NCBI GenBank assembly: GCA_016209705.1
Contig: JACQVR010000094.1
Location: 64-64,063, forward strand
Reading direction: 5' to 3'
Length of the DNA stretch: 64,000 nt
Source of the DNA: Planctomycetota bacterium
Lineage (GTDB): Bacteria; Planctomycetota; MHYJ01; JACPRB01
A program made the translations under genes and the position numbers. The notes under the pieces are model-generated. The model had not been told where the DNA came from. It saw only the letters and a list, made by a program, of their open reading frames with translations, and ran no database searches. Position 1 is the stretch's first letter; every line of letters starts with the position of its first letter. Below are positions 2,488 through 61,031 of the stretch, piece by piece.

Positions 2488-2988
2488 TTATTTCTTCTTT
2501 TCCCCGTCCTTTTCTTGCGACGGCTCCACGAACGAGACGTCGTGCTTCTTGAGGATGTCCCGGAACTTGGCTTCCAGCTCCGCGGCGGACGTCACGCCCT
2601 TTCTCCCGCGATAGGGAATCGCCTCGTGGATTTTCTTGTCGGGTGAGACGAGCCACAGGATCTGTCCGCCGTTCCAGCCGTCGGTCTCTTTCCAGAGCTC
2701 CGGCTCGATTTTTTCGCCCTTCTTGCGGGGCGTCCGGGGATGCCACGTCAGGACGGGGTAGAAATTCGTTTCGATGACCTTCTTGATCCGTTCGTCGAGA
2801 AGCGAACCGTTCTCGAATTTCTGGCAGGACGGTCAGCGCGGCCATTCTTTGTAGATGAGGACCCATCGCGACGTCTTCTCGTCCTGGGCCTTCTCGAAGG
2901 CCTCCTCGGACGACATCCATTTGATCTCGTCGATCCGATCGCCCGCGGCGACCGCCGCCGCCATGCCCAACCAGAGCATCGTCTTCAT
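2488..2988 (-). CDS. Secreted thioredoxin-fold (Thioredoxin_7/DsbD-gamma-like) protein with an in-frame TGA (complement 2833-2835) at the first position of a U-P-S-C (UxxC) redox motif. Candidate selenoprotein.
   Basis: The gene starts at ATG 2988, preceded by a GGGGG RBS, and encodes a signal peptide MKTMLWLGMAAAVAAG. Translation continues ...IKWMSSEEAFEKAQDEKTSRWVLIYKEWPR-TGA-PSCQKFENGSLLDERIKK... through to TAA at 2488. The segment after the TGA has no start codon of its own. Confidence 0.55.
2795..2816 (-). promoter_or_regulatory. Candidate bacterial SECIS hairpin, 16 nt downstream of the TGA at 2833-2835.
   Basis: Sense strand reads UCGAGAA-CGGUUCGC-UUCUCGA. This is a 7-bp perfect stem whose apical loop contains GGUUC. 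Confidence 0.4.
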
Positions 2989-3157: not shown

Positions 3158-3976
3158 TCAAACTTCAATGTGCTCCGCGCCGGTGTAGATGTTGAACGCG
3201 TCGGCGCGCAGGAAGCCGACCAGCGTCATCCCGGCCTGCTGGGCTATTTCGACGGCGAGGCTGGACGGCGCCGACACGGCGCAGACGGCGGAGATGCCCG
3301 CCATCATCGCTTTCTGCATGATCTCGAAGCTCGCGCGGCCGCTGACCATGAGGATGTGGCGGTCGAGCGGCACTCTCCCGTTAAGAAACATGGAACCGAT
3401 CGCCTTGTCCGTGGCGTTGTGCCGCCCGATATCTTCCCGCAGGACGAGCAGCGTACCGTGCGCGTCGAAGATCCCCGCCGCGTGAAGGCCGCCGGTGCGC
3501 TCGAACACGGTTTGAGCCTTGCGCAAGGTCTGCCCCAGGGAATAGAAAAACTCCAGCTTCAACCTCAGCTTGGAATTGGTCGGCTTCACTTCCATCTTGA
3601 TGTTTTCGATGGCCGCCTTTCCGCAGATGCCGCAGGAGCTCGTCGCGTAGAAGTTCCGCTTGAGCCGGGAGAGATCCACGGAAACGCCGGCCGCCGGCGT
3701 CACGTTGACGATGTTGCGCAGATCCGGATGCTTTTCGTCCTGGCAATACCGCAAGGCGCCGATGTCGTCGGGTGACTTCAGAATTCCTTCGGTGAACAGG
3801 AATCCGGCGGCCAGATCGAAATCTTCACCCGGCGTGCGCATGGTCACGACGACGGGTTCGTCATTGACGCGAACTTCCAGCGGCTCCTCGACGGCGAGCT
3901 CGTCGAGGTCCTGCTCGTGAGGTATGCCCTGCTCGATCTTCCGAGTGCCGTGCCGGGCGATGCGCGGTGACGTCAT
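3158..3976 (-). CDS. fdhD: Formate dehydrogenase accessory sulfurtransferase FdhD.
   Basis: A GRHNATDKAIG motif is present. The size and sequence are typical of the FdhD/NarQ family. Confidence 0.85.
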   Translation of the reverse strand: MTSPRIARHGTRKIEQGIPHEQDLDELAVEEPLEVRVNDEPVVVTMRTPGEDFDLAAGFLFTEGILKSPDDIGALRYCQDEKHPDLRNIVNVTPAAGVSVDLSRLKRNFYATSSCGICGKAAIENIKMEVKPTNSKLRLKLEFFYSLGQTLRKAQTVFERTGGLHAAGIFDAHGTLLVLREDIGRHNATDKAIGSMFLNGRVPLDRHILMVSGRASFEIMQKAMMAGISAVCAVSAPSSLAVEIAQQAGMTLVGFLRADAFNIYTGAEHIEV

Positions 3977-3996
3977 GTGTTCTCCCGCGCGCCATT

Positions 3997-6246
3997 CTAA
4001 TCAATCTTGGAAATGTCCACCACTACGTTGTAGTCGGGTTCGCACGACACGGGATCGTACCGGCGCGGAATGAGCACGTTCGCTTCCGGCCAATGCAGTT
4101 GCAACGTTCGAGGCCGCACGGGCGCGATGAAGACGCGGCCCATGAACTCGCCGGCACCCGAGCGCAGCCTGACCCGGTCGCCTTCGACGCATCCCAGCTC
4201 GCGCGCGTCTTCGGCGCACATGAAGACTGCCTCGCGGGCCGCCCGTCCCGTCAAAGGATCCCGCCGCGACTGGACCATCGAATTGAATTGCTTGCCGCGC
4301 CGCGTCGTGACCTGGAACTTGCCCTCCGGCAGATCCCGCCTCGGAATCTCCTGGACCCACATCCGGGCGCGTCCCCCGGGCATGCGGTCGAACGTTCCGC
4401 CTTCGAACAGGCGTTCGCCCCCCCATTGGACCGAATCCCCTTCGTTCCGGAGCGACGCGACGCCCTTGTAGAACGGAACCGCCCGCTCGATCTCCTCGCG
4501 CACTTCCTGCGGATGGCGATACGGGACCAGCCGCTCGAACCGGGGATCGACCTTCCGCGCCAGAAGGACGGGGATCTCCCACTCCGCTTTCGCCTCGCCG
4601 ACGCGCGGGCCGGGAACTTCGGGACTGAAGCGGATGCGCCGCTCCGTCGACGTCGCCGTGCAGCCGCCCGGCTGCTCGTAGCGGGTCATCGCCGGCAGGA
4701 GCACGACCAGATCGCCGTCCAGGAGGGTCGAGGTATTCACCACGATGTCTTGGTGCAGGCGCACGCCGATCCGGCCGATCGCTTCGCGGACGTAACGGCG
4801 GTCGGGCATCGTCTCGAGAAGGTTGCCCCCGATGTTGTACAGAAAATCGATCCGTCCCTCATGGGCGGCCTCGATCATGTGCGGCGTCGCCAACCCCCGG
4901 CGCGCGGGCACCGGAGCGCCCCACAGCGATTCCAGTTCCTTCGCCGATTCCGCGGTGATCGGGCGGCCGCCGGGGAACTTGTCCGGAGCCAGTCCCACCT
5001 CCGCGCCGCCCTGCACGCCGCTGTGGCCGCGGATGGCCATGACGCCGCACTTCTCGCGGCCCACCATGCCGCGCGCCAGCGCCAGCGTGCCGATGGAGCG
5101 GACGTTCCGGACGCCGAACTCGGATTGCGTCAGACCCATGCTGTAGACGAAGACGGCGGTCTCGGCCTCCTTGTAGATGGAGGCGAAGCGCGCCATCTCG
5201 GACCGCGGAAGTCCGCTCTCGCGCTCGAGTTCTTCCCACGCCATCGCGTCGAGCCGGGCCATGGACTCCTCGACGCCGGCGCCGTGGCGCTGGAGGAAAT
5301 CGAGGCGGAAGCCGTACATCTCCTTCAGCGCCTTGAGCGTTCCGTTCGCGAACGCGATGTCGCCGCCGATGCGGACGGCATAGTAATCGTCCATGAGGCG
5401 GGTGCCGAAGAGCGCGCTGCCCGCCACCGAGGGCACCCAGTATTTCTCCAGCCCGGGCTCGCGAAACGGGTTGACGACCGCCACCCGCGTGCCCTGCTTC
5501 TTCGCGTAATGGATGTACTTGGTCGTGACCGGCTGGTTGTTGGCCAGGTTCGTGCCCCACAGCACGAGCAGGTCGGTCCCGATGAAATCTTTCAGCGAGC
5601 AGTTCGGCGCGCCGACGCCGAAGATGTCCGCCAAACCGTAGGTGGACGGCGCGTGGCACAGGCGGGCACAGTAGTCGACATGCGGGCTTCCCAGCAGCCG
5701 CGCCACCTTCTGGAAGGTGTAGTAGGCCTCGTTGGTCAGACCGCGGGACGTGGCGAACCACGCCATGCGATCGGGATCGGTCTTCCGGAGTCGTTCCGCG
5801 ACGGTCTCGAGGGCTTCGTCCCAGGATACGCGGCGGAATCCGCGCTCCCCGCGCCGCCGCACGAAGGGATACGGCACGCGGCCGAGCGCCTGGAGCTCTT
5901 CATTGCGCAGCTTCCGAAGCGCCTCGACGTCCTCGAGCACGGCGGGGTCGAAGGCCGGCATCGTATTGAGGCGCAGGAGCCGAAGCCTCGTGGTGCACAG
6001 ATGGACGCCGTTGATGACGTCGTCCTTGAGCCCGTACGGACCCAGCGAGCAGCCGTCGCAGACGCCGTGGCGCAGGATGTTCCACGCGTACTTCAGGCTG
6101 TCGCGGTTCTCCCACGCGACCTTGAGCATTTCCGTGAAATGGCGCGGCTTGCGGCGGGCGCCGATGCCGAATGGCAGCGCTTCCAGGAACGTCCGGGTCG
6201 GCTTTTGGAGCGGCCGTTCCGGCGGCGGTCCGATGCGGGGATTCAT
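3997..6246 (-). CDS. Molybdopterin oxidoreductase alpha subunit, FdhF/YdeP family, Cys-type.
   Basis: The N-terminal Cys cluster reads HGVCDGCSLGP. The active-site region reads RLCHAPS, corresponding to E. coli FdhH V-U-HGPS but with Cys instead of Sec. The preferred start is ATG 6246 (MNPRIGPP); the track start at 6288 is TTG. Confidence 0.8.
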   Translation of the reverse strand: MNPRIGPPPERPLQKPTRTFLEALPFGIGARRKPRHFTEMLKVAWENRDSLKYAWNILRHGVCDGCSLGPYGLKDDVINGVHLCTTRLRLLRLNTMPAFDPAVLEDVEALRKLRNEELQALGRVPYPFVRRRGERGFRRVSWDEALETVAERLRKTDPDRMAWFATSRGLTNEAYYTFQKVARLLGSPHVDYCARLCHAPSTYGLADIFGVGAPNCSLKDFIGTDLLVLWGTNLANNQPVTTKYIHYAKKQGTRVAVVNPFREPGLEKYWVPSVAGSALFGTRLMDDYYAVRIGGDIAFANGTLKALKEMYGFRLDFLQRHGAGVEESMARLDAMAWEELERESGLPRSEMARFASIYKEAETAVFVYSMGLTQSEFGVRNVRSIGTLALARGMVGREKCGVMAIRGHSGVQGGAEVGLAPDKFPGGRPITAESAKELESLWGAPVPARRGLATPHMIEAAHEGRIDFLYNIGGNLLETMPDRRYVREAIGRIGVRLHQDIVVNTSTLLDGDLVVLLPAMTRYEQPGGCTATSTERRIRFSPEVPGPRVGEAKAEWEIPVLLARKVDPRFERLVPYRHPQEVREEIERAVPFYKGVASLRNEGDSVQWGGERLFEGGTFDRMPGGRARMWVQEIPRRDLPEGKFQVTTRRGKQFNSMVQSRRDPLTGRAAREAVFMCAEDARELGCVEGDRVRLRSGAGEFMGRVFIAPVRPRTLQLHWPEANVLIPRRYDPVSCEPDYNVVVDISKID

Positions 6247-6273
6247 AACGCAATTGTAAGAATCACCTTCAGA

Positions 6274-6298
6274 ACCACCAAGGCACAAGGTTGGTGGT
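6274..6298. repeat. Small hairpin ACCACCAAGGCACAAGGTTGGTGGT (8-bp stem). The CACCAAGG motif family is shared with the MITE-like element at 18515-18718.
   Basis: A perfect inverted repeat accaccaa/ttggtggt with a 9-nt loop. It lies in the divergent intergenic region between ydeP and the antitoxin gene. Confidence 0.4.
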
Positions 6299-10840: not shown

Positions 10841-11641
10841 CTACTCCCCCTCCCCGCGCTCCTTCCAGCGCCGGACCGCTTCCCGGCGCATCCGCTCCTT
10901 CGCCGGCCCCCACGATATTCGCGCGGCGTCCAATTCCCTCCGGAACGCGGCGTGCTCGAGATCGGGGACGGCGATTTGGCCGCACACCAACTTCCGAGGC
11001 CGCGGATTGGGCAGCAAGCGACCCTTCAGAAGATCGTCGTCGGATATGTCCTTCTCCGTGATGTGCTCCGACGCCCTGTTTCCATTCCAGCTCGGAAATC
11101 CTTCGACATGAGAGAGGGGGCCCGGCATCACCACGGTTCGATGAATCTCCAGACCGCCGATCAACTCCCTGAGGATGCGCTTCTTCAACTCGTCGCCCGG
11201 TTCTTCCCCCTCCCGTTTCTTCTCCCCCATCTTGACGGCGATCTCGATCTTGCAATCCACGCGCTCTGCGATGTCCAGCATGCACCCTTCCCCGGCTGGG
11301 CCGAATGCGAACTGGACGACGTTCTTCCCCTTCCTGAGCTTCAGGCGGCCGATGTCCTCGAAATAAAGGACCAGGGCGCAGGAACGCCATCCCCCGCGCT
11401 CCTCCTCCTGCGGCTCGGAGCCGCCTGAAATTCCTTCGCTCTCCTCCACCAGCGAAGCCATCCAGGCGTAGGCGTCTTCGGCACCATACAGGGCGTAATC
11501 GCTCGGAACGGAGAACCGCATCCGCAATTTTCCGGAGCCGTCGGGCAGAAGCGTCCACTCCTCGTCATACTTGAAGCAGCCGGCTCCCAGGAGCAACGCG
11601 CCGGCCGCCGCCGCCCAACGACCGAACCTGAAGGATTTCAT
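10841..11641 (-). CDS. Hypothetical lipoprotein, last gene of the ECF sigma operon.
   Basis: Lipobox LLLGAGC follows MKSFRFGRWAAAAG. The upstream part of track ORF 10841..12319 is antisense artefact. ATG is at 11641. Confidence 0.55.
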   Translation of the reverse strand: MKSFRFGRWAAAAGALLLGAGCFKYDEEWTLLPDGSGKLRMRFSVPSDYALYGAEDAYAWMASLVEESEGISGGSEPQEEERGGWRSCALVLYFEDIGRLKLRKGKNVVQFAFGPAGEGCMLDIAERVDCKIEIAVKMGEKKREGEEPGDELKKRILRELIGGLEIHRTVVMPGPLSHVEGFPSWNGNRASEHITEKDISDDDLLKGRLLPNPRPRKLVCGQIAVPDLEHAAFRRELDAARISWGPAKERMRREAVRRWKERGEGE

Positions 11642-12939
11642 TTGGGGAGACCGGAATTGAGGTGGTCGCACGCGATCTCCAATCGCCGGGTCTCCACATA
11701 GGCCGTCTCCAGTTCGCCGACGCGCGGGTCCGCGTCCCTCGGCGCCCGAAGTCGGAGCTCGATCAGAGGTCCCTCCCATTCGAGGCGCTTCCATTCCACT
11801 TCCAGGCCCGCCAACGCGTCCTCCGTGGAGGCGTATCCCCGGCGATACATGAGCTCCACGACCAACGCGTCGCGGAACACAGGAGCCACATCGTCCAGGA
11901 GATCTTCGGCGCGTTCCTCGGCGACATGGGCCATCAGCTTGATCATGGAAGCCGAAACGGCTTCGGAGTGCCGGATCAAATCGCCGAGCGACCCGGTCCG
12001 GCCATCCTCCATCAGGATGCCGACGCGCCGGCAAAGATCCGGATGCACCGTCACCAATTCGGAGAAGCCTTGACTCTGAACGGCGACTTCGAGCGTCGGC
12101 CGTTCGGGCCCCCCTTCCTCGATCATCAGGCGCACGACGCCGTCGTTGAATTGCTTGCACTCCATCGCCTTCATGAGGCCCCCCACGTCCGCGCGAACCG
12201 CGATGAGCAGGACGGCGTCCTCCCTCGCTTCGGACGGGGTCTCGGCATCCTGCCTCCACAGGGCCAGATGGCGCACGTACCGTTTCGCCGTGGGTTCCAG
12301 GGCGGTCGTCTGGGTCCATGCGTTCTTGGACGCCTTGAACAGCGCCTTCTTCGCGGCGACCCTTCGAGCCACGTTTCGGGAATCGATCTCGTCCAGCGCA
12401 TCCTGCGGCGAGATCTCGACGGGGGGATAATCCTTGGCCACGATTTCTTCCAGCGCGAGGGTGTGGAGATTCAGGGCGCCCTCGAACAGGGTCGTGGAGG
12501 CCACGACGGGGCGCGCGGCGATCTCGTCTAATCTTTCCTCGATCGATTTGGCCAGCGCGGTCTTGTATTCCTGGACTGTCCTTTCGGCGACGTCCGGAGC
12601 GGGCTTCGTCTCATCGGCCTTCCAATACCGCATCCCACCCCACAAGGCGACCGCGGCGGCGGCCGCACCGGCGCTCCGGAGCGCCCATCGACGGAACGCG
12701 CGGGAGGGTGACGCCAGGCGAGACACGTAATCGCGACGGCGTCGCGGGTCCGGCCGATGGACGGAAGCGCCGAGCTGCACGGCGCGCGCCAGGATCCGCC
12801 ATTCCTCCTGCATCTTGGCGAACAACGCCGCGCACGCCGGGCATTCCGACGCGTGGGACCGCGCATCGCGCTCCCGGACCGCGTCGAGCCGGCGATCCAG
12901 CAATTCGGCCGCGCGGGCGGAAAATTCGTCACACCGCAT
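11638..12939 (-). CDS. Anti-sigma factor (zf-HC2 N-terminal domain, single TM, periplasmic C-terminal domain).
   Basis: The N-terminus reads SHASECPACAALF (HxxxCxxC). It overlaps the upstream ECF sigma stop and carries a TM segment near residue 100. Confidence 0.7.
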   Translation of the reverse strand: MRCDEFSARAAELLDRRLDAVRERDARSHASECPACAALFAKMQEEWRILARAVQLGASVHRPDPRRRRDYVSRLASPSRAFRRWALRSAGAAAAAVALWGGMRYWKADETKPAPDVAERTVQEYKTALAKSIEERLDEIAARPVVASTTLFEGALNLHTLALEEIVAKDYPPVEISPQDALDEIDSRNVARRVAAKKALFKASKNAWTQTTALEPTAKRYVRHLALWRQDAETPSEAREDAVLLIAVRADVGGLMKAMECKQFNDGVVRLMIEEGGPERPTLEVAVQSQGFSELVTVHPDLCRRVGILMEDGRTGSLGDLIRHSEAVSASMIKLMAHVAEERAEDLLDDVAPVFRDALVVELMYRRGYASTEDALAGLEVEWKRLEWEGPLIELRLRAPRDADPRVGELETAYVETRRLEIACDHLNSGLPK

Positions 12940-13540
12940 AGAGACCTTCCAGCAAGCCCCTCAGCTTCTGCCTCGCGCTGAACAGGCGGGACTTGACGGT
13001 TCCTTCCGGAATATCCAAGGCCCTCGCGATTTCGGCGTAACTCAGCTCCTCGAAATGGAACAGCTCCAGGATGAGCCGATCGTCCGCGCCGAGTCGCCGG
13101 AACGCTCTTCTCATGAGCTCGTCCGTCTCGCCGGGCGCCCCGACCGGAGGGCTGACCGCTTCCACCTGAATCCTGGCGGCCCGACGAAAGCGCGCGTCTT
13201 GCTGCTGGCGTTTGAGCCACTGTCTCTTGAGGATGCCCACCAGCCAGGTGAAAATCCCCGACTCCCCTCGAAAGCGCGCGATCGCTTTCAACGCGACCGT
13301 GAATGTCTCCTGCGTGAGATCTTCCACAGCCTCCCGATCATGGACCAACGCGCATGCGACGCGGAACAGCCGGTCGTAATGCGTCTCGACCAGCGTCCGG
13401 AGCGCGGAACGGTCTCCCCTCCGAGCTCGTTCCACGAGCCGGCCGTCGCCGATCGAACCCGGTACAGGCGGAATCGCCCGGCCGGATTTCTCCGACTCCC
13501 GGGCCGACGATTCCCTGCGGGTGGTCACAGATTCTTCCAT
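12929..13540 (-). CDS. RNA polymerase ECF (sigma-70 family) sigma factor.
   Basis: Regions 2 and 4 are present, reading DLTQETFTVALKAIARF ... LSYAEIARALDIPEGTVKSRLFSARQKL. Confidence 0.85.
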   Translation of the reverse strand: MEESVTTRRESSARESEKSGRAIPPVPGSIGDGRLVERARRGDRSALRTLVETHYDRLFRVACALVHDREAVEDLTQETFTVALKAIARFRGESGIFTWLVGILKRQWLKRQQQDARFRRAARIQVEAVSPPVGAPGETDELMRRAFRRLGADDRLILELFHFEELSYAEIARALDIPEGTVKSRLFSARQKLRGLLEGLYAV

Positions 13541-13557: not shown

Positions 13558-15225
13558 TTAATCTTCCTCTTTTTTCTTTTCTTCCGATCCCTTCCGCAGG
13601 TTTTCGAGCTGCTTCATGTTGGGATCGTCCTGTCCGACTCCCATCTTCTTGAGAAACTCGATCGCCTCGTCGATGCTGTTGAACGTCCGATTCAATTTGG
13701 GGTCTTCCGCGGGTTTGGACACGTCATCGACGAGAACCCCATTTCCGTCGCGCGTGCGTTTTCCGGCGGCTTCGGCTTTGACCCAGACGAGCGAGTCGTT
13801 CTGGAGCAGGCAGATCAAAGCGTAGTGCGCGGTGCGCCAGCTCGGTCCGTCGCAGGCCTCGTACCCAGCGAACCGGGGGGCCGCCCGCCGGGGCGGAGCC
13901 GCGAAGGATCCCTTCAATTCCTGCTGGCTCAGGATGAACACCTGGTGATGCTCGTTGAAATTCGTCCATGCCGACAGTCCCACCTGCCGGGACCAGATCG
14001 CCGCCGAGAGGAAGTGCGTCGGCAGCGCGACCGCTGCCTGGGCGACGGAGCGCACGTGCTCGCTGTAATACGCGGTCAAGTTCTGAAGGAACGCGTCTTC
14101 CATTCGACAGCCCATCGATCTCAAGGCCACGAGGGCGCCGGCGCAGCGTCCCGCTTCGCGGCGGCTGTCGAACGTCGGATCGACGACGAACCCCGCCGTT
14201 CCATCGTTCGAATGTTTCTTGAGATAGGCGCAGGCGCGCTCGAATACTTGGTTCTCGATCTCCACGCCCACCCGCTCCGCCGCGCCCAACGCCGTCAGAC
14301 ACTGATTCGCCGTCAACGTCCGTTCGCAATATCCCAGGTCCTGGCCCGCGGACCATCCCCCCTCCTCATGGGACGCGATCAGGAGGCGAACTCCCTCCTG
14401 AATCAGCGCGAATACGGACGGTTCCGGCGCGCGAGCGTAGCGTTCCGCGAAAAAGAGGGTCGTGGCGGCGGTCGCCCACGGTCCGATAGCCGTGGCGCTC
14501 TTCAGCGCGCCTTCGAGATAGCGGCCGCATCGGCCTACGGACTCGGCGTACGTTCCCGCCTTCCCGTCGCTCCCCGAAGCCAGAAACGCCAAACCCACCA
14601 TGGCGGTCACGGCCGCCTTGGGTCCCGCCTCATCCCGAGCCGCCGGAAACGAGCCGTCCGGAAGTTGGCTCCCCTTCAGGAACTCAAGGCCTTTCTCCGC
14701 CGCCAGCTCGTATCGCGCGCTCCGTCCCGGCAGCCCTTGTTCCAGCGGCGGAAGCGTCAGCGCCAGCCGCGCCGTTTGAATCCGGCCGTCCCTCAAAAAG
14801 GCAAGCTCCACCGTCTCCAGGCCGGCGGATAAGGCGGCTTCCAGCCGCCTGAGAAGATCGAGGGTCGGATCCTCCTTGAGCGGAAGAAAATCCTTCTCGA
14901 CGCGAATCAGAACGTCGCCGACTCGCAGCCCGATGGCGCGCAACGGCGATCCATCCTCGATCGTGCGCAGGACGACGCCGCCGGGGTAGCGGAATTGCTG
15001 CGGATCCGTGGCGTCCGGAACCTTGATCGAGCGCGTGGCGCCGTGCCCCGCGGCGCCCAGGAATCCGAGGGTGTGAAACTCGGCGACGTCGGGATCGAGA
15101 TAATCGACGCGTGGCGGGCCGGAAGATGACGTGAATCCGCGGAACGCCAGAAAGGCCGCGATGCCGGCGGCGATCAGCACCAGCAGAAAGGCGCCGGCCC
15201 GGCCCGACGAAGGATTGCAGGTCAT
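13558..15225 (-). CDS. Membrane-anchored PDZ-domain protein with prenyltransferase/squalene-oxidase (terpene-cyclase-like alpha/alpha toroid) repeats.
   Basis: An N-terminal TM anchor is followed by a PDZ-like segment IGLRVGDVLIRVEK. Repeated QLPDGSF/EEGGWS-type motifs follow. Confidence 0.6.
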   Translation of the reverse strand: MTCNPSSGRAGAFLLVLIAAGIAAFLAFRGFTSSSGPPRVDYLDPDVAEFHTLGFLGAAGHGATRSIKVPDATDPQQFRYPGGVVLRTIEDGSPLRAIGLRVGDVLIRVEKDFLPLKEDPTLDLLRRLEAALSAGLETVELAFLRDGRIQTARLALTLPPLEQGLPGRSARYELAAEKGLEFLKGSQLPDGSFPAARDEAGPKAAVTAMVGLAFLASGSDGKAGTYAESVGRCGRYLEGALKSATAIGPWATAATTLFFAERYARAPEPSVFALIQEGVRLLIASHEEGGWSAGQDLGYCERTLTANQCLTALGAAERVGVEIENQVFERACAYLKKHSNDGTAGFVVDPTFDSRREAGRCAGALVALRSMGCRMEDAFLQNLTAYYSEHVRSVAQAAVALPTHFLSAAIWSRQVGLSAWTNFNEHHQVFILSQQELKGSFAAPPRRAAPRFAGYEACDGPSWRTAHYALICLLQNDSLVWVKAEAAGKRTRDGNGVLVDDVSKPAEDPKLNRTFNSIDEAIEFLKKMGVGQDDPNMKQLENLRKGSEEKKKEED

Positions 15226-16424
15226 GGCTTCGAGCCGGCCGGACGACTCGCCGCCGGCTTTTTCTCCAGGGCGCCGTGAGCGGCCAGATAATGCTCAAGG
15301 CTCAGAATCGCGAAGCCGGTTCCCCACTTGTCCCCGTAACCGTAACAGATCGTATCCCACCAGCTCTTTTCCTTCTCCTGGTTGCGGAGAATCACTGTGA
15401 CGAGGTGATTCCAATGCTCCGGCGGGACGTCTTTCCCCAGCAGGGTCATGACCTCCGCCGCGTAATAGCATCCGTAGTAGAAGAAATAGCCGGAGATGTT
15501 GTGCGGCGCGTCGCGGTGGGGAATGATGCGCTTGTTTCCGATCCGCTCCACGTAGTCCAATGTTTTGAAAAAGAACTGATTCCGCTCGCGAAGGATCTCT
15601 CGCGTGTACGTATCGTCGTAATGATGCAGCGCCAACCCTCCGGCCTGCGTCCGCGCTCCGGCGCCGAGTTCTTCCAACGGATGCGTCGTGCTTCTTTTCA
15701 GGTAGTAGCCGTACATCATGTTCTTGTCGGGATACATCATCCGCTTCATGATCTTGGCGGCGTCCCCCAACATCCCTTCGGGGATGTCGAACCCTTGCTT
15801 CTTGGCCTTCATCAGCGGGAGCATGACCGACGCCGTCGTGAAGCTCAGGCAATCCCCACCCATGCCCGGATCCGAATAGTACGCCCATCCTCCCTCGTGC
15901 GCCTGAAGCTTTCGGAGCTGCTCGATGACCTCGGGGATGATGCGCTTCATTTCGTTGCGATGCGCTGAACCATACGGATGGTCCCAGAGCGCCGTCAGAA
16001 AATCCAAAATGTAGGCGTATCCCCACACATTGAACGCCTCCCCCGGATCGTAAGGACACTTCCACCCGCTCAAGACGGCATGGATCCCCTTGTCGAGCGT
16101 CTCGCCGTGCTCTTTCGTGCGCAAGGGATAATGCAGGAAAGCTTTCGCGATGATGGAAGTGCACGCCAGGCGCACGCTGTGTTGAGCGCCCCGACTCGTG
16201 AGTCCGAATCCGAGCTGGGAATCCTCCAGCGCCACGGGATCGTGGGATCCCCAGGATCCGTCCTTGTTCTGCTTTTCTCGAAGGAACCGGAAACCGTCCT
16301 CGATGGCCTGATGCGCCGCGACCGCGACGCTTTCCCGACTCGGCGGCGCCTTCTCGGTGTCTTGGCTTCGAGCGCTCAAGGGGGCCAGGAGCGCCCCGAC
16401 CAGCATGATCGGCGCGAGCCTCAT
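15222..16424 (-). CDS. Secreted prenyltransferase/squalene-oxidase repeat protein (terpene-cyclase-like).
   Basis: Signal peptide MRLAPIMLVGALLAPLSA. Repeat motifs include QNKDGSWG, HEGGWAYY and KEKSWWD. It overlaps the next gene by 4 nt. The 5' portion of the track ORF is antisense to the permease. Confidence 0.6.
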   Translation of the reverse strand: MRLAPIMLVGALLAPLSARSQDTEKAPPSRESVAVAAHQAIEDGFRFLREKQNKDGSWGSHDPVALEDSQLGFGLTSRGAQHSVRLACTSIIAKAFLHYPLRTKEHGETLDKGIHAVLSGWKCPYDPGEAFNVWGYAYILDFLTALWDHPYGSAHRNEMKRIIPEVIEQLRKLQAHEGGWAYYSDPGMGGDCLSFTTASVMLPLMKAKKQGFDIPEGMLGDAAKIMKRMMYPDKNMMYGYYLKRSTTHPLEELGAGARTQAGGLALHHYDDTYTREILRERNQFFFKTLDYVERIGNKRIIPHRDAPHNISGYFFYYGCYYAAEVMTLLGKDVPPEHWNHLVTVILRNQEKEKSWWDTICYGYGDKWGTGFAILSLEHYLAAHGALEKKPAASRPAGSKP

Positions 16425-16435
16425 GCGTGGCACTT

Positions 16436-16512
16436 TGAACCGCCAAAACGCCAAAGCGCCAGGGGAAGTCCTTACCGGAACTCTTTCGGCGGTTTGGCGC
16501 TTCGGCGGTTTA
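16436..16512. repeat. REP/MITE-like 77-bp palindromic element, copy 1 (TTGAACCGCCAAA...GGCGGTTTA).
   Basis: The arms gaaccgccaaaacgccaaagcgcc and ggcggtttggcgcttcggcggttta are inverted. A second copy with the same termini lies at 50596-50672. Confidence 0.45.
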
Positions 16513-16549
16513 CCCAAAGGATAAAACATGGATGACTCCTCACGGATCC

Positions 16550-17818
16550 TCATTCGGCCCGCAGCGCCAGGACCGGATCGAGCCGGGCCGCCCGGAACGC
16601 GGGAAGGGTGCCGAACAAGAGGGCGACCACGACGGAAACGCCGAACCCCAGGGGGAACGCGACCGGTTGGAACGCCACGTTCCATTGCGCCAAGGTTCCG
16701 ACGACCAGCGCGATCAAGACGCCCATTCCCAGACCGAGCAACCCGCCCAGTCCTCCCAGCAGCGTGCTCTCGCCCAGGAAAAGCTTGACGATCTCGCTTC
16801 GCGTCGCGCCCAGAGCGCGCCGAACGCCGATCTCCTGCCGACGCTCGGCCACGTTGGCCAGCATGATGTTCATGATCCCGATGCCGCCGACCAGCAGCGA
16901 GAGCGAAGCGATCGAACCCATGACCCACATGAAGATCCGCTCGGCCAGTTGATGCTCCTTCAACAAGGCGTGCGGGATCGTGGCCTCCACGTCCTTCAGG
17001 CGATGGCGGCTCTCCATCAAGTTGAGCGACGCCTGCGCCACGGGACCGAGATGGCCTACATCGGAAACGCGCAGGACGGCCCGATTCACTTCCACCTCGG
17101 TGGATTCCCAGACACCCTGACCCGAGCGGACCTGACGTGTTCCGAAACGGGCCAGCGCCGTGGAATACGGAATGTACGCGGCGTGATCCGGATTGGACAA
17201 CGCTCCCTGCGTTCCCGTCTGCCCCTTCTGCTCCAACACCCCCACGACGGTGAAGGGATCGCCGCCGATCTTGACGATCTCCCCGATGGAGTCGCTGAGC
17301 GGAAAGAGCAGGCGCGCCGTGTCGTGCCCGAGGACGCATATGGAGTCCGCCTGCCCTTCGTCCACCGGGCAGAGGAATCTCCCCTCGCGGATTCCGTGCT
17401 CCATGATCTCGCCGTACTCCGACGTCGTGGCGACCACGCTGGCGTCGGAATTCTGGAACGTCGTCGACACGTCGCGCAGGATCAGGCGCATCGGAAGCAC
17501 CGCTTCGACGCTGGGAAGGTTGTCCTTCAGAATCTCGAGGTCTTTCTGGGTGATTCCGTAGCTGGCGGTCCACGAAGACGTCGACCGCTCCTCTTCCCGC
17601 TTGCGGACCCTCTGGGGCTTGACGGAGTCCAGGATGATGTTGCGCAATCCCATGCGCTCGATGCGCGTGACGACGTCCCGCCGGGCCACCTCGCTGATGG
17701 ACAGCATGCAGATGACCGAGCTCACTCCGAACACGACGCCGAGCATGGCCAGGAAGGAGCGGGTCTTGTGCAGCAGGAGGTTCTGAAAGGCTTCGATCCA
17801 GAATTTGACGATCTTCAT
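16550..17818 (-). CDS. ABC transporter permease, MacB/FtsX family.
   Basis: The N-terminal TM is followed by a large periplasmic domain and a C-terminal FtsX 3-TM bundle, with GVRRALGATRSEIV. Confidence 0.85.
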   Translation of the reverse strand: MKIVKFWIEAFQNLLLHKTRSFLAMLGVVFGVSSVICMLSISEVARRDVVTRIERMGLRNIILDSVKPQRVRKREEERSTSSWTASYGITQKDLEILKDNLPSVEAVLPMRLILRDVSTTFQNSDASVVATTSEYGEIMEHGIREGRFLCPVDEGQADSICVLGHDTARLLFPLSDSIGEIVKIGGDPFTVVGVLEQKGQTGTQGALSNPDHAAYIPYSTALARFGTRQVRSGQGVWESTEVEVNRAVLRVSDVGHLGPVAQASLNLMESRHRLKDVEATIPHALLKEHQLAERIFMWVMGSIASLSLLVGGIGIMNIMLANVAERRQEIGVRRALGATRSEIVKLFLGESTLLGGLGGLLGLGMGVLIALVVGTLAQWNVAFQPVAFPLGFGVSVVVALLFGTLPAFRAARLDPVLALRAE

Positions 17819-22038: not shown

Positions 22039-22306
22039 GCGAGCTTTCATCCCTCCGCGATTCTGCGCCAACCGACGCCGGAAGATCGACACCGTCAGAT
22101 GTCGCTGTTCACGGAAGGTCTCCGCACGGTCGCGCGATTGCTCAACGGCAACGGAAGCGTTTCAGCCTCGATCGCCCGAAGGCGTCGCGAAGGTCCTCCT
22201 TGGCCCGTTCAAGTCGCGCGCGGCGGGAATCGTTACGTCCCAGGGGTCGACGAGCGGCCATCATCGACACGGACGCTCGGTAAGATTAGACTTCGTGGGA
22301 GGTTCC

Positions 22307-23062
22307 ATGAGAACGCTGCTTCGGCTCAGCTTCGGGGTGGCGCTGACCGCGTCAGGCTGCCATTTCCGATCGCAGGATGACCCAGCCCAGGAGCCCCGCG
22401 CGGCGGCCGCAGCCGTCGCGAACATCCCGGCTCTCGACCGACAAATCCCCGATGTTCTCGAATCCGCCACATTCGCGGTCGGCTGATTCTGGGATGCGGA
22501 CGCCCGGTTCGGGACCGTCCCCGGCGTCGTGCGCACGCGCGTGGGATACGCCGGCGGAACGCTCGCGAATCCCGCCTATGACCACATAGGCGACCATCTC
22601 GAGGCGATCCAGATCGACTACGATCCGTCGCGAGTCACGTACGAGGATCTCCTGGATCTCTTCTGGGAGATCCATGATCCCTGCCCGCCGCGCTGGACCC
22701 GCCAGTACATGTCCGTCATCTTCACGCACAACGAGACGCAACGGGAACTCGCGGAGGGATTCAAGGCGCGCGAGGACGCCCCGGGCGCGATCATTCCGAC
22801 CAAGATCCTCCCGTTGACCCGGTTTTATCCGGCGGAGGACCGTCATCAAAAGTACGTGCTGCGTCAGATAGAAGAGCTGATGCGGGAGTTCCGCGCCATG
22901 TATCCCAGGGAGGCCGACTTCGTGAATTCCACGGCGGCCGCGCGCGTCAACGGATTCGTGGCCGGCCTCACCCTAGCGGAACGGATCGAAGCGGTGATCG
23001 ATCAATTAGGGCTTTCTCCCGAGGGTCGGCGACTGCTGCGATCCTTCGCCCTTCCGCAGTGA
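22307..23062 (+). CDS. msrA: Peptide methionine sulfoxide reductase MsrA lipoprotein with in-frame TGA (22484-22486) at the catalytic Cys position. Candidate Sec-MsrA.
   Basis: A GGGAGG RBS precedes signal/lipobox MRTLLRLSFGVALTASGC. Translation continues ...ESATFAVG-TGA-FWDADARFGTVPGVVRTRVGYAGG... (GCFWG becomes GUFWD). The rest of MsrA, including DPCPPRW, is in frame through to 23062. Confidence 0.7.
22498..22520 (+). promoter_or_regulatory. Candidate bSECIS hairpin, 11 nt downstream of the msrA TGA.
   Basis: GGACG-CCC-GGUUC-GGG-AC-CGUCC folds as a bipartite stem with an apical loop GGUUC. Confidence 0.45.
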
Positions 23063-45037: not shown

Positions 45038-45440
45038 GATTCGTTCGCTCCCCATTCCGAGCTTTCGACCTTTCGGTTGACGCAATCACGAATCGCCAGG
45101 CGAACGCGCTTCAGGAGCGCGTACGTCGCCTGCACGGTCTTCCCGATCGATCCGGCGATTTGCGGCACGTCCAGGGCCGAACCGTAGCGCAAGGTGATGA
45201 TCTTGCGGGAAAGACCGCGAAGGGACTTCATTCACTCGTCCAGCGCCGCGCACCGTCGTTCGATGTAGGAGGTTTCATCGACTTCCTTCGCGGCTTCGGC
45301 GAGTTGATCGAGCACTTCGGGATCGACGGTGACGAAACCGGCGCGACTCTTCTTGAAGAAATCCAGGATGGAGCGCCGGGCGATTTCGCGGATCCACGCA
45401 CGGAAATTGAGGATCGGCCCCTGGCGTTCCCATTGAGCAT
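45034..45440 (-). pseudogene. ECF sigma factor remnant. It is N-terminally truncated, and region 2 and region 4 are separated by an in-frame TGA.
   Basis: The frame reads ...WERQGPILNFRAWIREIARRSILDFFKK...AALDE-TGA-MKSLRGLSRKIITLRYGSALDVPQIAG.... There is no start codon or region 2.1/2.2 between it and the upstream gene end at 45508. Confidence 0.5.
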
Positions 45441-45507
45441 TCTTTTTTCCTCTGCGAAACGCCGGTTTATTCGACAGCGCTTATCCGGTCTCCTCCCTGG
45501 AAGGAGC

Positions 45508-59460: not shown

Positions 59461-60162
59461 TCATCCGATCAGATGCGTGTAGTCCCGGAAAGGCGCTCGG
59501 CAGGGAGGGCCATCCGCAAACAGGAGCCGCTCTCCGTGTGAAGATCGGATGAGCATGAGCGAGGAAACGGTTCCGTACACGTCGCCGTGCTTGCAGACGG
59601 GTCGATCTCCTTCGTGCGAACGCAGGAAATCCGCCAGATCCGCCTCCGGCGGGACCGCGGAGTTCTCGGAAAAGCTCCGCAGAAACGTCCGCCGTTCAGG
59701 CATCGCGGGATCGTCGAGGTCGGCGTTCGTCGAAATGACGTGACGGCCGGGTCCGAACGAAGTTCTGCGAAGCTCGCCATCCCAGTGGAGGCACAACCCG
59801 ACGCCGTCCTTTTCCACCGCGACCATGTTGAAGCCGGCCACCGGCCGCTCGCCGACGCGCTTGGCGATAAGGGCTTCGACTCAGCCCAGCGCGCGGCAGT
59901 CCAGCGCCTCCAGAGCCACCAAACCGCGCGAGTAAGAGTCCGGCGTCTTCGCCGGAGTCCGGCGATTGGTCACGGCCACGACAAGTCCGTGGCGGTTGAC
60001 GGCGAACCACGTGCCGCCCCCCTCGAGGTCCTGAGGGCCGACAACGCCGGGTCGCAGCTCCTTCGGCGGCGCGGAGAGGCGCGCGACCCGTTCGTCCCGA
60101 TTGGCGCCGATCACCAGGGGGATGTCACGATCCAGGCCGACGAACAGGGTGAGCACGCACAT
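59461..60162 (-). pseudogene. NRDE (TANGO2-like, DUF833) family gene interrupted by an in-frame TGA (complement 59881-59883).
   Basis: The start reads MCVLTLFVGLDRDIPLVIGANRDERV (the MC...ANRDE signature). The frame then reads ...LEALDCRALG-TGA-VEALIAKRVGERPVAGFNMVAVEKDG... to 59461. No UxxC chemistry or GGUUC-loop hairpin follows the TGA. Confidence 0.45.
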
Positions 60163-60226: not shown

Positions 60227-60983
60227 CCCGCTGCCGAGTCTCGCAAGCGGGCCGTCGCTCCTGCGGAACCGTATTCTGGAACTTGAGAGGGCGCGGTAGG
60301 ATTCGGGGAAAGCACTGGAAAGGAGGAAGGTAAATGACCTGTCCCCAAATCCAATCCCAACGGCGCCGGTCGAACCGCGCGCGAAGCTCCTCCACCGCCG
60401 CTCGCGCCCGGTTCGCGGCCGCTTCGGCCTCGAGCATTCTGGTCCGCAGGAGTTCCAGTTCCGCGCGACGCGCCTCCTCGGCCCCCCGCTCCGCTTCCCG
60501 CTTCAGGATGGCGTCCGCTTCGCTTTCCAGAACCCACCGGCCCCGGAAGCGGACGAAACCTTCGGCCGCGCGGATTTCGACCTCCGTCATCCATCGCCCT
60601 TCATGCCGCCGGTAGCCGAGCGCGGCCCGAGCGCCGGCGTGATCGGGTTCTCGAACCACGACTTCCTCGAAGAGCTTGCGGGCGCGAGTGAGCAAATCCC
60701 GCTCGGCGGCCCACCGGGCCAGCCGGTATCGACCCTCCACATCGCCGGGCCGCAGGGCGGCCGCGCGCCGCTCCAACTCGTCAAGCGCCGAAGGCCCTCG
60801 GTGAATGCGGGCCACGTCGGATCGCCGGAGCGTGATCGTGCCATAATCCAACTCCACCACCACGCTCGACGCGGATTCCGTCACTCGGCCTTCGAACCTG
60901 GCTCCGTTGCGCAGTACGACTTCGTCCGCGCGCGCCGGCACGCGGAGAAGCGCAAGCCCCACGATCCACGCAGCGTATTTCAT
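60198..60983 (-). CDS. Hypothetical secreted protein (Arg/Glu-rich coiled-coil C-terminus).
   Basis: Signal peptide MKYAAWIVGLALLRVPARA is present. The extent is uncertain because the upstream track ORF portion is artefact and the 3' end overlaps the leader element. Confidence 0.4.
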   Translation of the reverse strand: MKYAAWIVGLALLRVPARADEVVLRNGARFEGRVTESASSVVVELDYGTITLRRSDVARIHRGPSALDELERRAAALRPGDVEGRYRLARWAAERDLLTRARKLFEEVVVREPDHAGARAALGYRRHEGRWMTEVEIRAAEGFVRFRGRWVLESEADAILKREAERGAEEARRAELELLRTRMLEAEAAANRARAAVEELRARFDRRRWDWIWGQVIYLPPFQCFPRILPRPLKFQNTVPQERRPACETRQRDAGTEGFSR

Positions 60984-61031
60984 GAGTCTATATATTATAA
61001 GCCTGGAGCGGCGCGATTGATTCGAAATACG

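What the first reader, a model, noticed from the sequence alone, without database searches (positions are those of the whole stretch)
22307..23062. Lipoprotein MsrA with UGA at the catalytic cysteine (GCFWG to G-U-FWD): candidate Sec-containing methionine sulfoxide reductase A
The frame from the RBS-preceded ATG encodes a lipobox signal peptide and then ...ATFAVG-TGA-FWDADARFG.... This places TGA precisely at the nucleophilic Cys of the MsrA GCFWG motif. The remainder of MsrA follows in frame with no start codon of its own. A bipartite hairpin with apical loop GGUUC begins 11 nt after the TGA. Sec-MsrA forms are known but rare in bacteria.
Basis: partly seen in the sequence, partly recalled or inferred. 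Interest (0 to 1): 0.85.

Follow-up and report, generated by a model that had tools for sequence, protein, structure and literature searches.

The report
Selenocysteine MsrA lipoprotein gene, genuine
This gene encodes a methionine sulfoxide reductase A whose catalytic cysteine is replaced by selenocysteine, read from an in-frame UGA with the help of a conserved RNA hairpin; it is real, but it belongs to a characterised and widespread selenoprotein family.

Summary
The ORF 22307-23062 (+) has one in-frame TGA (22484-22486, codon 60) at the catalytic residue of MsrA. It aligns with residue 16 of Clostridium oremlandii MsrA, a natural, experimentally studied selenoprotein (47% identity, E 1e-48). 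The TGA is not an assembly error: two other assemblies from two sequencing runs are identical across it. It is not a private nonsense mutation either. The same G-TGA-F-W codon occurs in at least 120 species genomes of many phyla. In those genomes it is followed by a hairpin that shows compensatory changes and synonymous-codon constraint, and Cys-type homologues mostly lack that hairpin. The window has the hairpin at 22498-22520, starting 11 nt after the UGA, with a GGUUC tip. No selA, selB, selC or selD gene lies in the 64 kb, so the machinery could not be checked directly. A second gene in the window, a secreted thioredoxin-like protein with a U-x-x-C motif, also carries a conserved UGA with a GGUUC-tipped hairpin. 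This suggests the organism, a Planctomycetota MAG, decodes Sec. The lipoprotein signal peptide is plausible: about 74% of Sec-MsrA relatives carry an N-terminal hydrophobic segment. Verdict: a new member of a known kind, of modest interest.

The parts
22264..22292 (+). Sigma-70-like promoter candidate (TCGACA-17-TAGACT). Weak evidence.
   Evidence: Consensus scan, (1 site found against 0.2 expected).
22297..22302 (+). Ribosome-binding site GGGAGG, 4 nt before the ATG.
   Evidence: Sequence read. The Logan gene call starts at the same ATG.
22307..23062 (+). Full msrA reading frame: 251 codons including Sec60, with terminal TGA at 23060-23062.
22307..22360 (+). Putative lipoprotein signal peptide MRTLLRLSFGVALTASG|C. 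The lipobox-like A-S-G-C ends at Cys18 (22358-22360). A roughly 35-aa Ala/Pro-rich tether follows.
   Evidence: Sequence. Homologues carry LAGC or LGC lipoboxes or hydrophobic N-termini. No dedicated predictor was available.
22466..22873 (+). MsrA catalytic (PMSR) domain, residues 54-189.
   Evidence: Pfam PF01625, E 3.9e-39.
22484..22486 (+). UGA read as selenocysteine (Sec60) in the motif G-U-F-W-D.
   Evidence: Aligns with Cys16 (native Sec16) of C. oremlandii MsrA (PMC4333827, PMC4479559). The same codon is TGA in at least 120 genomes. It is identical in three assemblies.
22498..22520 (+). SECIS core hairpin. Lower stem GGACG pairs with CGUCC (G15-C37, G16-C36, A17-U35, C18-G34, G19-C33). 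Upper stem CCCG pairs with CGGG (C20-G30 to G23-C27). There is a 2-nt 3' bulge (A31, C32) and a GUU tip (GGUUC at 22506-22510). The ViennaRNA MFE alternative spans 22485-22528 with the same apical stem-loop.
22874..23002 (+). C-terminal helical region, residues about 190-232. It aligns with the helical domain that C. oremlandii MsrA needs for activity.
   Evidence: The phmmer alignment to 4LWJ/7C13 runs to chain residue 189 (PMC4333827). The Pfam MsrA_helical model itself was not hit for the window protein, but it is hit for many homologues.

Best explanation
This is a functional selenoprotein gene for peptide methionine-(S)-sulfoxide reductase A. During translation the UGA at codon 60 is not read as stop. 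A hairpin in the mRNA starts 11 nt downstream and has a G-U-containing tip. It would recruit the Sec-specific elongation factor SelB carrying Sec-tRNA(Sec), so selenocysteine is inserted as the catalytic nucleophile in G-U-F-W-D. This step is inferred from family knowledge and from conservation. The N-terminus looks like a lipoprotein signal peptide, so the enzyme is probably exported and lipid-anchored at Cys18. It would then repair oxidised methionines in envelope proteins (inferred, moderate confidence). The selenenic acid formed on Sec60 must be recycled by a thiol or selenol partner. No resolving Cys is conserved, so this is a 1-Sec type like C. oremlandii MsrA, and the reductant is unknown.
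For: 1. Family and position: Pfam PMSR E 3.9e-39 and TIGR00401 above cutoff. The best PDB hits are the C. oremlandii MsrA constructs (E about 1e-48, 47.5% identity over 181 residues), with the TGA opposite Cys16, which is Sec in the native enzyme (PMC4333827, PMC4479559).
2. Integrity: active-site residues Y91, E99, Q133, Y134, H180 and Y183 are conserved, as they are in 113 Sec-type relatives. GC3 is 0.79 downstream of the TGA.
3. Not an error: Logan assemblies of SRR12113390 and SRR12113401 are 100% identical across the TGA.
4. Conserved UGA: 15 of the 120 best protein hits show 'GWFWG', and all four contigs fetched, which carry three of those proteins, have TGA at that codon. A protein-motif DNA scan found the TGA form in at least 120 species genomes from Planctomycetota, Desulfobacterota, Chloroflexota, Acidobacteriota, Nitrospirota, Firmicutes and others.
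5. Conserved RNA structure: the 8-bp stem (columns 16-23 with 27-34) is paired in 81.5% of cells in 122 Sec forms, against 47% in 101 Cys forms and 23-61% with slid partners. Compensatory changes occur at three pairs, and 0 of 500 shuffles reach the observed covariation score. A complete hairpin is present in 70% of Sec forms and 10% of Cys forms.
6. Synonymous-codon constraint: the Gly codon inside the stem is GGG in 113/122 Sec forms against 32/101 Cys forms (Fisher p 1e-22). Control Gly codons show no bias.
7. TGA is otherwise a normal stop: it ends 23 of 42 genes, including msrA itself.
8. Second UGA gene: a thioredoxin-like gene in the window has W-P-R-UGA-P-S-C with a GGUUC-tipped hairpin, both conserved in a 58%-identical homologue.
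9. Lineage: some Planctomycetes carry complete Sec-insertion gene sets (PMC4807772).
Against: No selA, selB, selD or tRNA-Sec gene lies in the 64 kb window, and the rest of the MAG could not be reached. Sec-decoding capacity of this organism is therefore inferred, not shown. Rfam has no hit, and the hairpin alone is not more stable than shuffled sequence. The window protein deviates from its relatives at two normally conserved positions: G63D (1 of 113) and Y179R (2 of 113). The signal peptide's hydrophobic core is short and the -3 lipobox residue is Ala, so export is plausible but not demonstrated. Two further in-frame TGAs in the window, in an NRDE/TANGO2 gene and an ECF-sigma fragment, are not at Cys positions. 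They leave open some other UGA read-through phenomenon.
Confidence: 0.9

Rival explanations
1. Pseudogene. A TGY-to-TGA nonsense mutation at the catalytic Cys codon has inactivated a Cys-type msrA, and only a 59-residue stub is made.
For: A single base change converts TGC or TGT to TGA. Gene callers split the locus into 59-aa and 177-aa pieces. The protein carries two unusual substitutions, G63D and Y179R.
Against: The TGA at this codon is shared by at least 120 species whose proteins are only about 46-57% identical to this one. The window carries the family's Sec-specific hairpin and codon signature (CCC GGT TCG GG), with its own compensatory pair C18-G34. The frame, GC3 and active-site residues are intact downstream.
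Confidence: 0.04
2. Sequencing or assembly error. The true codon is TGC or TGT.
For: MAG assemblies can contain single-base errors.
Against: Three assemblies agree base for base across the site: the window and the Logan contigs from SRR12113390 and SRR12113401. The flanking RNA signature is the one specific to TGA forms.
Confidence: 0.01
3. UGA is decoded by some mechanism other than Sec insertion: code reassignment to Trp or Gly, a suppressor tRNA, or leaky read-through. The resulting MsrA would have a non-Sec residue at position 60.
For: Four in-frame TGAs lie in about 55 genes of the window. Two of them, in the NRDE/TANGO2 gene and the ECF sigma fragment, are not at Cys positions. Some gene callers translated homologues with W.
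Against: TGA terminates 23 of 42 confident genes, including msrA itself. The genome is 63% GC, unlike known TGA-reassigned lineages (the comparison rests on my own knowledge). Trp or Gly at the nucleophile position would give a dead enzyme, yet the gene family is conserved. The hairpin has the position and G/U tip expected for SelB (PMC8659212).
Confidence: 0.03
4. Two separate products: a small lipopeptide (codons 1-59) and an N-terminally truncated MsrA-like protein started at GTG 22529.
For: A GTG exists at 22529, and automated callers use it.
Against: No Shine-Dalgarno sequence precedes that GTG. The product would lack the first strand and the catalytic residue. The 42 nt between the TGA and the GTG encode the conserved FW(G/D)xDxxFG motif in frame.
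Confidence: 0.02

Closest known systems
Selenoprotein MsrA of Clostridium (Alkaliphilus) oremlandii OhILAs (CoMsrA; PDB 4LWJ, 4U66, 7C13, 4W8C)
   Same: Same subfamily: 47.5% identity, E about 1e-48. Sec lies at the same position of the G-U-F-W-x motif, the same active-site residues are present, and the C-terminal helical extension aligns. Like CoMsrA it has no conserved resolving Cys, i.e. it is 1-Cys/1-Sec type (PMC4333827, PMC4479559).
   Different: CoMsrA is cytoplasmic, with Sec at residue 16 and no leader. The window protein has a 59-residue N-terminal extension with a lipoprotein-type signal peptide and tether. Its motif is GUFWD rather than GUFWG. It has one non-conserved Cys (C126), whereas CoMsrA has none. 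The organism is a high-GC Planctomycetota bacterium, not a Firmicute. CoMsrA is recycled by a (seleno)glutaredoxin, whereas the reductant here is unknown.
Extracytoplasmic Cys-type Msr systems: Neisseria gonorrhoeae MsrA/B lipoprotein, Haemophilus influenzae periplasmic MsrAB, Streptococcus pneumoniae MsrAB2 with Etrx lipoproteins
   Same: MsrA activity is placed outside the cytoplasm by a signal peptide or lipid anchor to repair envelope proteins (PMC6372556, PMC9404787, PMC3914529). Thirteen of about 120 Sec-MsrA loci also have an msrB immediately upstream.
   Different: Those enzymes use Cys, are fused to MsrB and/or Trx domains, and have defined CcdA/DsbD-Trx electron supply. Here the enzyme is a single-domain Sec enzyme, and no electron-supply genes are adjacent.
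Escherichia coli fdhF SECIS element
   Same: A hairpin inside the coding sequence, with the upper stem-loop starting 11 nt after UGA and G and U in the apical loop, the SelB contacts (PMC8659212). The window hairpin starts at +15 and has a GGUUC tip.
   Different: The sequence is unrelated, and no Rfam SECIS family matches. The E. coli bulged U17 on the 5' strand is absent. The window has a 2-nt bulge on the 3' strand, while most relatives have a perfect 8-bp stem.
Cys-type lipoprotein MsrA homologues with a G-C-F-W-C motif (the majority of the best database hits)
   Same: Same architecture of signal peptide or lipobox, IPxID linker and MsrA, at 46-57% identity.
   Different: They use Cys, often with a second Cys three residues later that could serve as resolving Cys. 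They mostly lack the downstream hairpin and its codon signature.

Membership tests
MsrA (Pfam PF01625 PMSR / TIGR00401) | Sequence match above the curated thresholds. | tested here: met
   PF01625 134.8 bits (cutoff 23.7). TIGR00401 112.7 bits (cutoff 108.1).
MsrA (Pfam PF01625 PMSR / TIGR00401) | Catalytic nucleophile in the G-[C/U]-F-W-x motif at the start of the domain. | tested here: met
   The TGA codon 60 aligns with Cys16 of 15-GCFWG-19 in 4LWJ/7C13 (PMC4333827).
MsrA (Pfam PF01625 PMSR / TIGR00401) | Conserved substrate-binding residues (Tyr, Glu, Gln-Tyr, His, Tyr). | tested here: met
   Y91, E99, Q133, Y134, H180 and Y183 are present and are at least 84% conserved in 113 relatives.
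MsrA (Pfam PF01625 PMSR / TIGR00401) | Met-(S)-sulfoxide reductase activity. | not testable with these tools
   Needs an enzyme assay.
Bacterial selenoprotein MsrA (CoMsrA type) | An in-frame UGA at the catalytic position that is conserved among orthologues. | tested here: met
   The TGA is in the window and in at least 120 species genomes plus metagenome contigs.
Bacterial selenoprotein MsrA (CoMsrA type) | A SECIS hairpin immediately downstream of the UGA, under RNA-level selection. | tested here: met
   81.5% paired against 47% in Cys forms. Compensatory changes at three pairs, with 0 of 500 shuffles reaching the observed score. GGG codon bias p 1e-22.
Bacterial selenoprotein MsrA (CoMsrA type) | C-terminal helical domain. 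| tested here: inconclusive
   The alignment to CoMsrA runs through residue 189 of 209, but Pfam MsrA_helical (PF20939) was not reported for the window protein.
Bacterial selenoprotein MsrA (CoMsrA type) | The genome encodes selA, selB, selC (tRNA-Sec) and selD. | not testable with these tools
Indirect support: a second conserved UGA/UxxC gene in the window.
Bacterial selenoprotein MsrA (CoMsrA type) | Selenium actually incorporated. | not testable with these tools
   Needs 75Se labelling or mass spectrometry.
Bacterial SECIS (E. coli fdhF paradigm) | Stem-loop about 11 nt after the UGA, with G (and U) in a small apical loop 16-37 nt from the UGA. | tested here: met
   The stem starts at +15 and the loop G24-U25-U26 is at +24 to +26. 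The 11-nt rule is from PMC8659212, the apical-loop G from PMC1088965. The 16-37 nt range is recalled from the bSECISearch description and was not checked against a paper here.
Bacterial SECIS (E. coli fdhF paradigm) | Match to a curated Rfam SECIS covariance model. | tested here: not met
   No Rfam hit at E up to 10 in 22400-22650. As far as I know, Rfam has no model built for this gene family's SECIS (not checked).
Bacterial lipoprotein (SPase II substrate) | Positively charged n-region, hydrophobic h-region, lipobox [LVI][ASTVI][GAS]-C. | tested here: inconclusive
   In MRTLLR-LSFGVALTAS-G-C, the n-region and the Cys fit. The h-region is short (KD about 1.4) and the -3 residue is Ala. Homologues have canonical LAGC or LGC lipoboxes. 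No dedicated predictor was available.

The most novel reading that the evidence does not exclude
The organism runs a selenium-dependent repair system for oxidised methionine outside the cytoplasm. It would consist of a lipid-anchored Sec-MsrA recycled by a secreted selenoprotein of the thioredoxin fold, the U-x-x-C gene at 2488-2988. More broadly, most bacterial Sec-MsrAs would be envelope enzymes rather than cytoplasmic ones like the only characterised example. The window would also come from a genome unusually dense in UGA-recoded genes, including an NRDE/TANGO2 gene whose conserved UGA is not at a Cys position.
Probability: 0.2. Interest if true: 0.55.

Novelty: new member of a known kind. 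Interest (0 to 1): 0.27.

Why it matters
For annotation, the locus should be one 251-codon selenoprotein gene, not a 59-aa stub plus a 177-aa fragment or a pseudogene. The same correction applies to more than a hundred genomes in which gene callers either split the gene or translate the UGA as Trp. Biologically, the case suggests that selenoprotein MsrA is usually an exported or membrane-anchored enzyme. The single characterised example, C. oremlandii MsrA, is cytoplasmic. That raises a concrete, testable question: what reduces a selenenic acid in the periplasm? The conserved hairpin with its Sec-specific codon signature is also a clean marker for separating Sec from Cys forms of this family.

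Tried and rejected
- Rfam, at gathering scores on the whole window and at E up to 10 on 22400-22650, found only a tRNA-Arg and no SECIS family.
- Single-sequence folding gave a hairpin no better than shuffles (z -0.5 to +1.0), so thermodynamics alone was dropped as evidence.
- ARAGORN found no tRNA-Sec in the window.
- Pfam and NCBIfam scans of about 55 ORFs found no SelA, SelB or SelD.
- The FdhF/YdeP-family molybdoenzyme at 4000-6288 (-) next to fdhD was examined as a possible selenoprotein. It has no in-frame TGA.
The X and W versions are not in the collection, and only Logan holds the two fragments. NCBI's own annotation of this locus therefore remains unknown.
- Walking along the 126-kb NCBI contig was not possible, because the encoding-contig index returned only short Logan contigs.
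- Neighbourhood clustering of 120 Sec-MsrA loci gave no universal partner gene. Only msrB (13 loci) and response regulators (14 loci) recurred.
- Cys126 was considered as a resolving Cys, but only 10 of 113 relatives have Cys in that column.
- RNAalifold on the ungapped alignment gave no useful consensus, because two stem registers coexist. Explicit pair counting was used instead.

Full report
**1. What is in the sequence**

The + strand frame from ATG 22307 runs 251 codons to TGA 23060-23062. GGGAGG lies 4 nt upstream of the ATG, and a weak sigma-70-like site lies at 22264-22292. There is one internal TGA, at 22484-22486 (codon 60). The product begins MRTLLRLSFGVALTASGC. An Ala/Pro-rich stretch follows, and then ...IPALDRQIPDVLESATFAVG-TGA-FWDADARFGTVPGVVRTRVGYAGG....

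With Cys placed at codon 60 the protein matches Pfam PMSR (E 3.9e-39, residues 54-189) and TIGR00401 msrA above its curated cutoff. Mechanical ORF listing and public gene calls split the locus into a 59-aa piece and a 177-aa piece that starts at GTG 22529. The neighbours are unrelated:
- a CBS-domain gene upstream;
- a convergent Na+/H+ exchanger downstream;
- then tRNA-Arg, dnaX, ybaB and rpoN.

**2. The TGA is at the catalytic residue of a known selenoenzyme subfamily**

The best solved-structure matches (E about 1e-48) are 4LWJ, 4U66, 7C13, 4LWK-M and 4W8C. Identity is 47.5% over 181 residues. The literature identifies 4LWJ as full-length Clostridium oremlandii MsrA. This is a natively Sec-containing, 1-Cys-type enzyme crystallised as Cys versions. 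Its active-site motif is 15-GCFWG-19 with catalytic residue 16, and it has a C-terminal helical domain required for activity (PMC4333827, PMC4479559).

In the alignment, query residue 60 lies opposite chain residue 16. The active-site residues Tyr47, Glu55, Gln89, Tyr90, His137 and Tyr140 of CoMsrA correspond to Y91, E99, Q133, Y134, H180 and Y183 here. A 2026 review lists MsrA with a 'GUFWG/H' motif among experimentally supported prokaryotic selenoproteins (PMC13188914). A Sec-MsrA was already listed for Syntrophobacter fumaroxidans in 2006 (PMC1794560).

**3. Not an error, and not code reassignment**

The window comes from an NCBI MAG labelled Planctomycetes/Planctomycetota bacterium. Its neighbouring CBS protein is MBI4565421.1, on a contig of 125,981 bp. 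Two Logan assemblies from different runs, SRR12113390 and SRR12113401, are 100% identical to the window over 5,075 and 1,159 bases that include the TGA.

TGA is the commonest terminator among confident genes (23 of 42) and ends msrA itself. The window is 58-67% GC throughout.

**4. The UGA is conserved across phyla**

Among the 120 best protein hits (46-57% identity), 15 read 'GWFWG'. All four contigs I fetched, which carry three of those proteins, have TGA at that codon. The W is therefore a gene-caller artefact.

The hits include Planctomycetota, 'delta proteobacteria'/Desulfobacterota, Chloroflexota, Acidobacteriota, Nitrospirota, Synergistota, Myxococcota and Firmicutes such as Desulforamulus aeronauticus DSM 10349. 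The form is widespread, not rare.

**5. The hairpin is real at the family level**

Downstream of the UGA, most Sec forms read GAC UCC CGG UUC GGG AGU C. This is a perfect 8-bp stem with a GUU tip (GGUUC in 81/122, AGUUC or AGUUU in 37/122). In 122 distinct Sec-form sequences:
- The stem (columns 16-23 with 27-34 from the U of UGA) is paired in 81.5% of cells. With the 3' partner slid by 1-3 columns the figure is 23-61%.
- Compensatory double changes occur at pairs 18-32 (CG/UA), 19-31 (UA/GC) and 23-27 (GC/AU).
- None of 500 column shuffles reaches the observed covariation score or paired fraction.

As a control I fetched 101 distinct Cys forms of the same protein motif (TGY instead of TGA) from metagenomes. 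They pair in only 47% of cells. A complete hairpin is present in 10% of them, against 70% of Sec forms.

The difference is visible in synonymous codons. The Gly codon inside the 3' arm is GGG in 113/122 Sec forms against 32/101 Cys forms (Fisher p about 1e-22). Two control Gly codons outside the stem show no such bias.

The window sequence is GGACG-CCCG-GUU-CGGG-(AC)-CGUCC, at 22498-22520. It scores 4/4 in the upper stem and 5/5 in the lower stem, in the register with a 2-nt 3' bulge that 22 relatives share. Its own C18-G34 pair replaces the U-A usual in that class. ViennaRNA's MFE offers an alternative lower stem but the same apical stem-loop.

The upper stem-loop starts 11 nt after the UGA and presents G and U in the tip. 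This is the geometry described for the E. coli fdhF SECIS, where G23/U24 contact SelB (PMC8659212; conserved apical-loop G in PMC1088965). Rfam has no matching model, and single-sequence stability is unremarkable in this GC-rich context. The comparative signal is what carries the argument.

**6. Sec machinery**

No tRNA-Sec, SelA, SelB or SelD is encoded in the 64 kb, and I could not reach the rest of the MAG. Indirect evidence is good.

A screen for in-frame TGAs flanked by coding-like sequence turned up a second candidate selenoprotein at 2988-2488 (-). It is a signal-peptide-bearing Thioredoxin_7-like protein reading ...YKEWPR-UGA-PSC..., a classical U-x-x-C redox motif. Only two homologues exist in the 5.8-billion-protein collection. 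The one whose DNA could be fetched (58% identity) has TGA at the same codon (WPR-UGA-SSC). It also has the same hairpin, UCGAGA(A/G)CG-GUU-CGCUUCUCGA, 16 nt after the UGA, again with a GGUUC tip.

Two unrelated genes in one window thus share a conserved UGA and a similar hairpin tip, which fits one SelB recognising both. Complete Sec-insertion gene sets are documented in several Planctomycetes (PMC4807772).

**7. Export**

The N-terminus has two Arg residues, a short hydrophobic core and A-S-G-C. That is a plausible but not textbook lipobox.

Support from relatives is stronger. Many Cys-type hits begin with ...LLLAAALGC..., and the best Sec-type hit has ...AALAGC.... In a crude hydropathy screen, 91 of 123 Sec-MsrA loci have an N-terminal hydrophobic segment and 26 have a lipobox after it.

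Extracytoplasmic Cys-type Msr enzymes are well known: the N. gonorrhoeae lipoprotein, H. influenzae periplasmic MsrAB and S. pneumoniae MsrAB2 with Etrx lipoproteins (PMC6372556, PMC9404787, PMC3914529). None of the papers returned by my one literature search describes an exported Sec-type enzyme.

No resolving Cys is conserved. Cys126 is shared by only 10 of 113 relatives, and 36 relatives have a Cys in a C-terminal extension that the window protein lacks. The recycling partner is unknown. The secreted U-x-x-C protein 19 kb away is a speculative candidate.

**8. Peculiarities of this copy**

The motif is GUFWD rather than GUFWG (1 of 113 Sec forms has D, although GCFWD occurs among Cys forms). 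Arg replaces the nearly invariant Tyr before H-Q-K-Y. Neither position is in the active-site list I could read (the passage was cut off), but these changes keep a small probability on decay.

**9. Verdict**

The locus is a genuine selenocysteine-type msrA with a family-conserved SECIS, probably encoding an exported lipoprotein. It is a new member of a characterised and, as shown here, widespread selenoprotein family, and it is not a surprise to a specialist. The more interesting leads are side observations:
- most Sec-MsrAs appear to be envelope proteins;
- the window holds a second, very rare U-x-x-C selenoprotein candidate;
- an NRDE/TANGO2 gene has a conserved in-frame UGA at a non-Cys position.

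Noticed in passing
window 2488-2988 (-); TGA at 2833-2835; hairpin about 2795-2816: Second candidate selenoprotein: a signal-peptide-bearing Thioredoxin_7-like protein (166 codons) with W-P-R-UGA-P-S-C, a U-x-x-C motif. A 58%-identical homologue (L247, Logan SRR22388038) has TGA at the same codon and the same GGUUC-tipped hairpin 16 nt downstream. Only two homologues were found in 5.8 billion proteins.
   Followed up: partly
window 59464-60162 (-); TGA at 59881-59883: An NRDE/TANGO2-family gene (PF05742) is interrupted by an in-frame TGA (...LEALDCRALG-TGA-VEALIAKRV...), with no start codon directly after it. A 57%-identical homologue in MAG GCA_964464755.1 (L248) has TGA at the same codon. 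Full-length homologues have variable residues there (Q, V, E, G and others), not Cys, and I saw no clearly conserved hairpin. It could be a new selenoprotein form or a conserved read-through site. Unexplained.
   Followed up: partly
window about 45040-45480 (-); TGA at 45232-45234: A fragment of an ECF sigma factor, in which only region 4 is detectable, carries an in-frame TGA and has no region-2 N-terminus. It sits in a lower-GC patch (about 44-52 kb, 58-60% GC) with Fic, DUF4143/AAA_14 ATPase and GNAT genes. It is probably a decayed gene beside an inserted segment.
   Followed up: partly
L007-L126 (Sec-MsrA loci from genome contigs): Thirteen of about 120 loci have an msrB gene, itself with an N-terminal hydrophobic segment, immediately upstream on the same strand. 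Fourteen have a response regulator nearby. No thioredoxin or CcdA partner is consistently linked.
   Followed up: partly
L127-L246 (Cys-type loci from metagenome contigs): About 10% of Cys-type genes keep the full Sec-type hairpin and codon signature (TCC CGG TTC GGG AGT). This looks like 'fossil' SECIS elements left by recent Sec-to-Cys conversion.
   Followed up: no
window 3158-6288 (-): fdhD lies next to an FdhF/YdeP-family molybdopterin oxidoreductase (TIGR01701, 594 bits). The oxidoreductase has no in-frame TGA, so it is not a selenoprotein here despite belonging to a family that often is.
   Followed up: yes
residues 49-121 of the MsrA protein: There is a weak match (36.9 bits, far below the 275-bit cutoff) to NCBIfam NF041383, 'VPGUxxT family thioredoxin-like (seleno)protein, type 2', profile positions 143-202. 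That model may contain an MsrA-like segment.
   Followed up: no
window 60300-63383 (+), 11638-12960 (-), 15222-17573 (-): Large ORFs with coding-like GC3 (up to 1,027 codons) have no Pfam or NCBIfam match.
   Followed up: no
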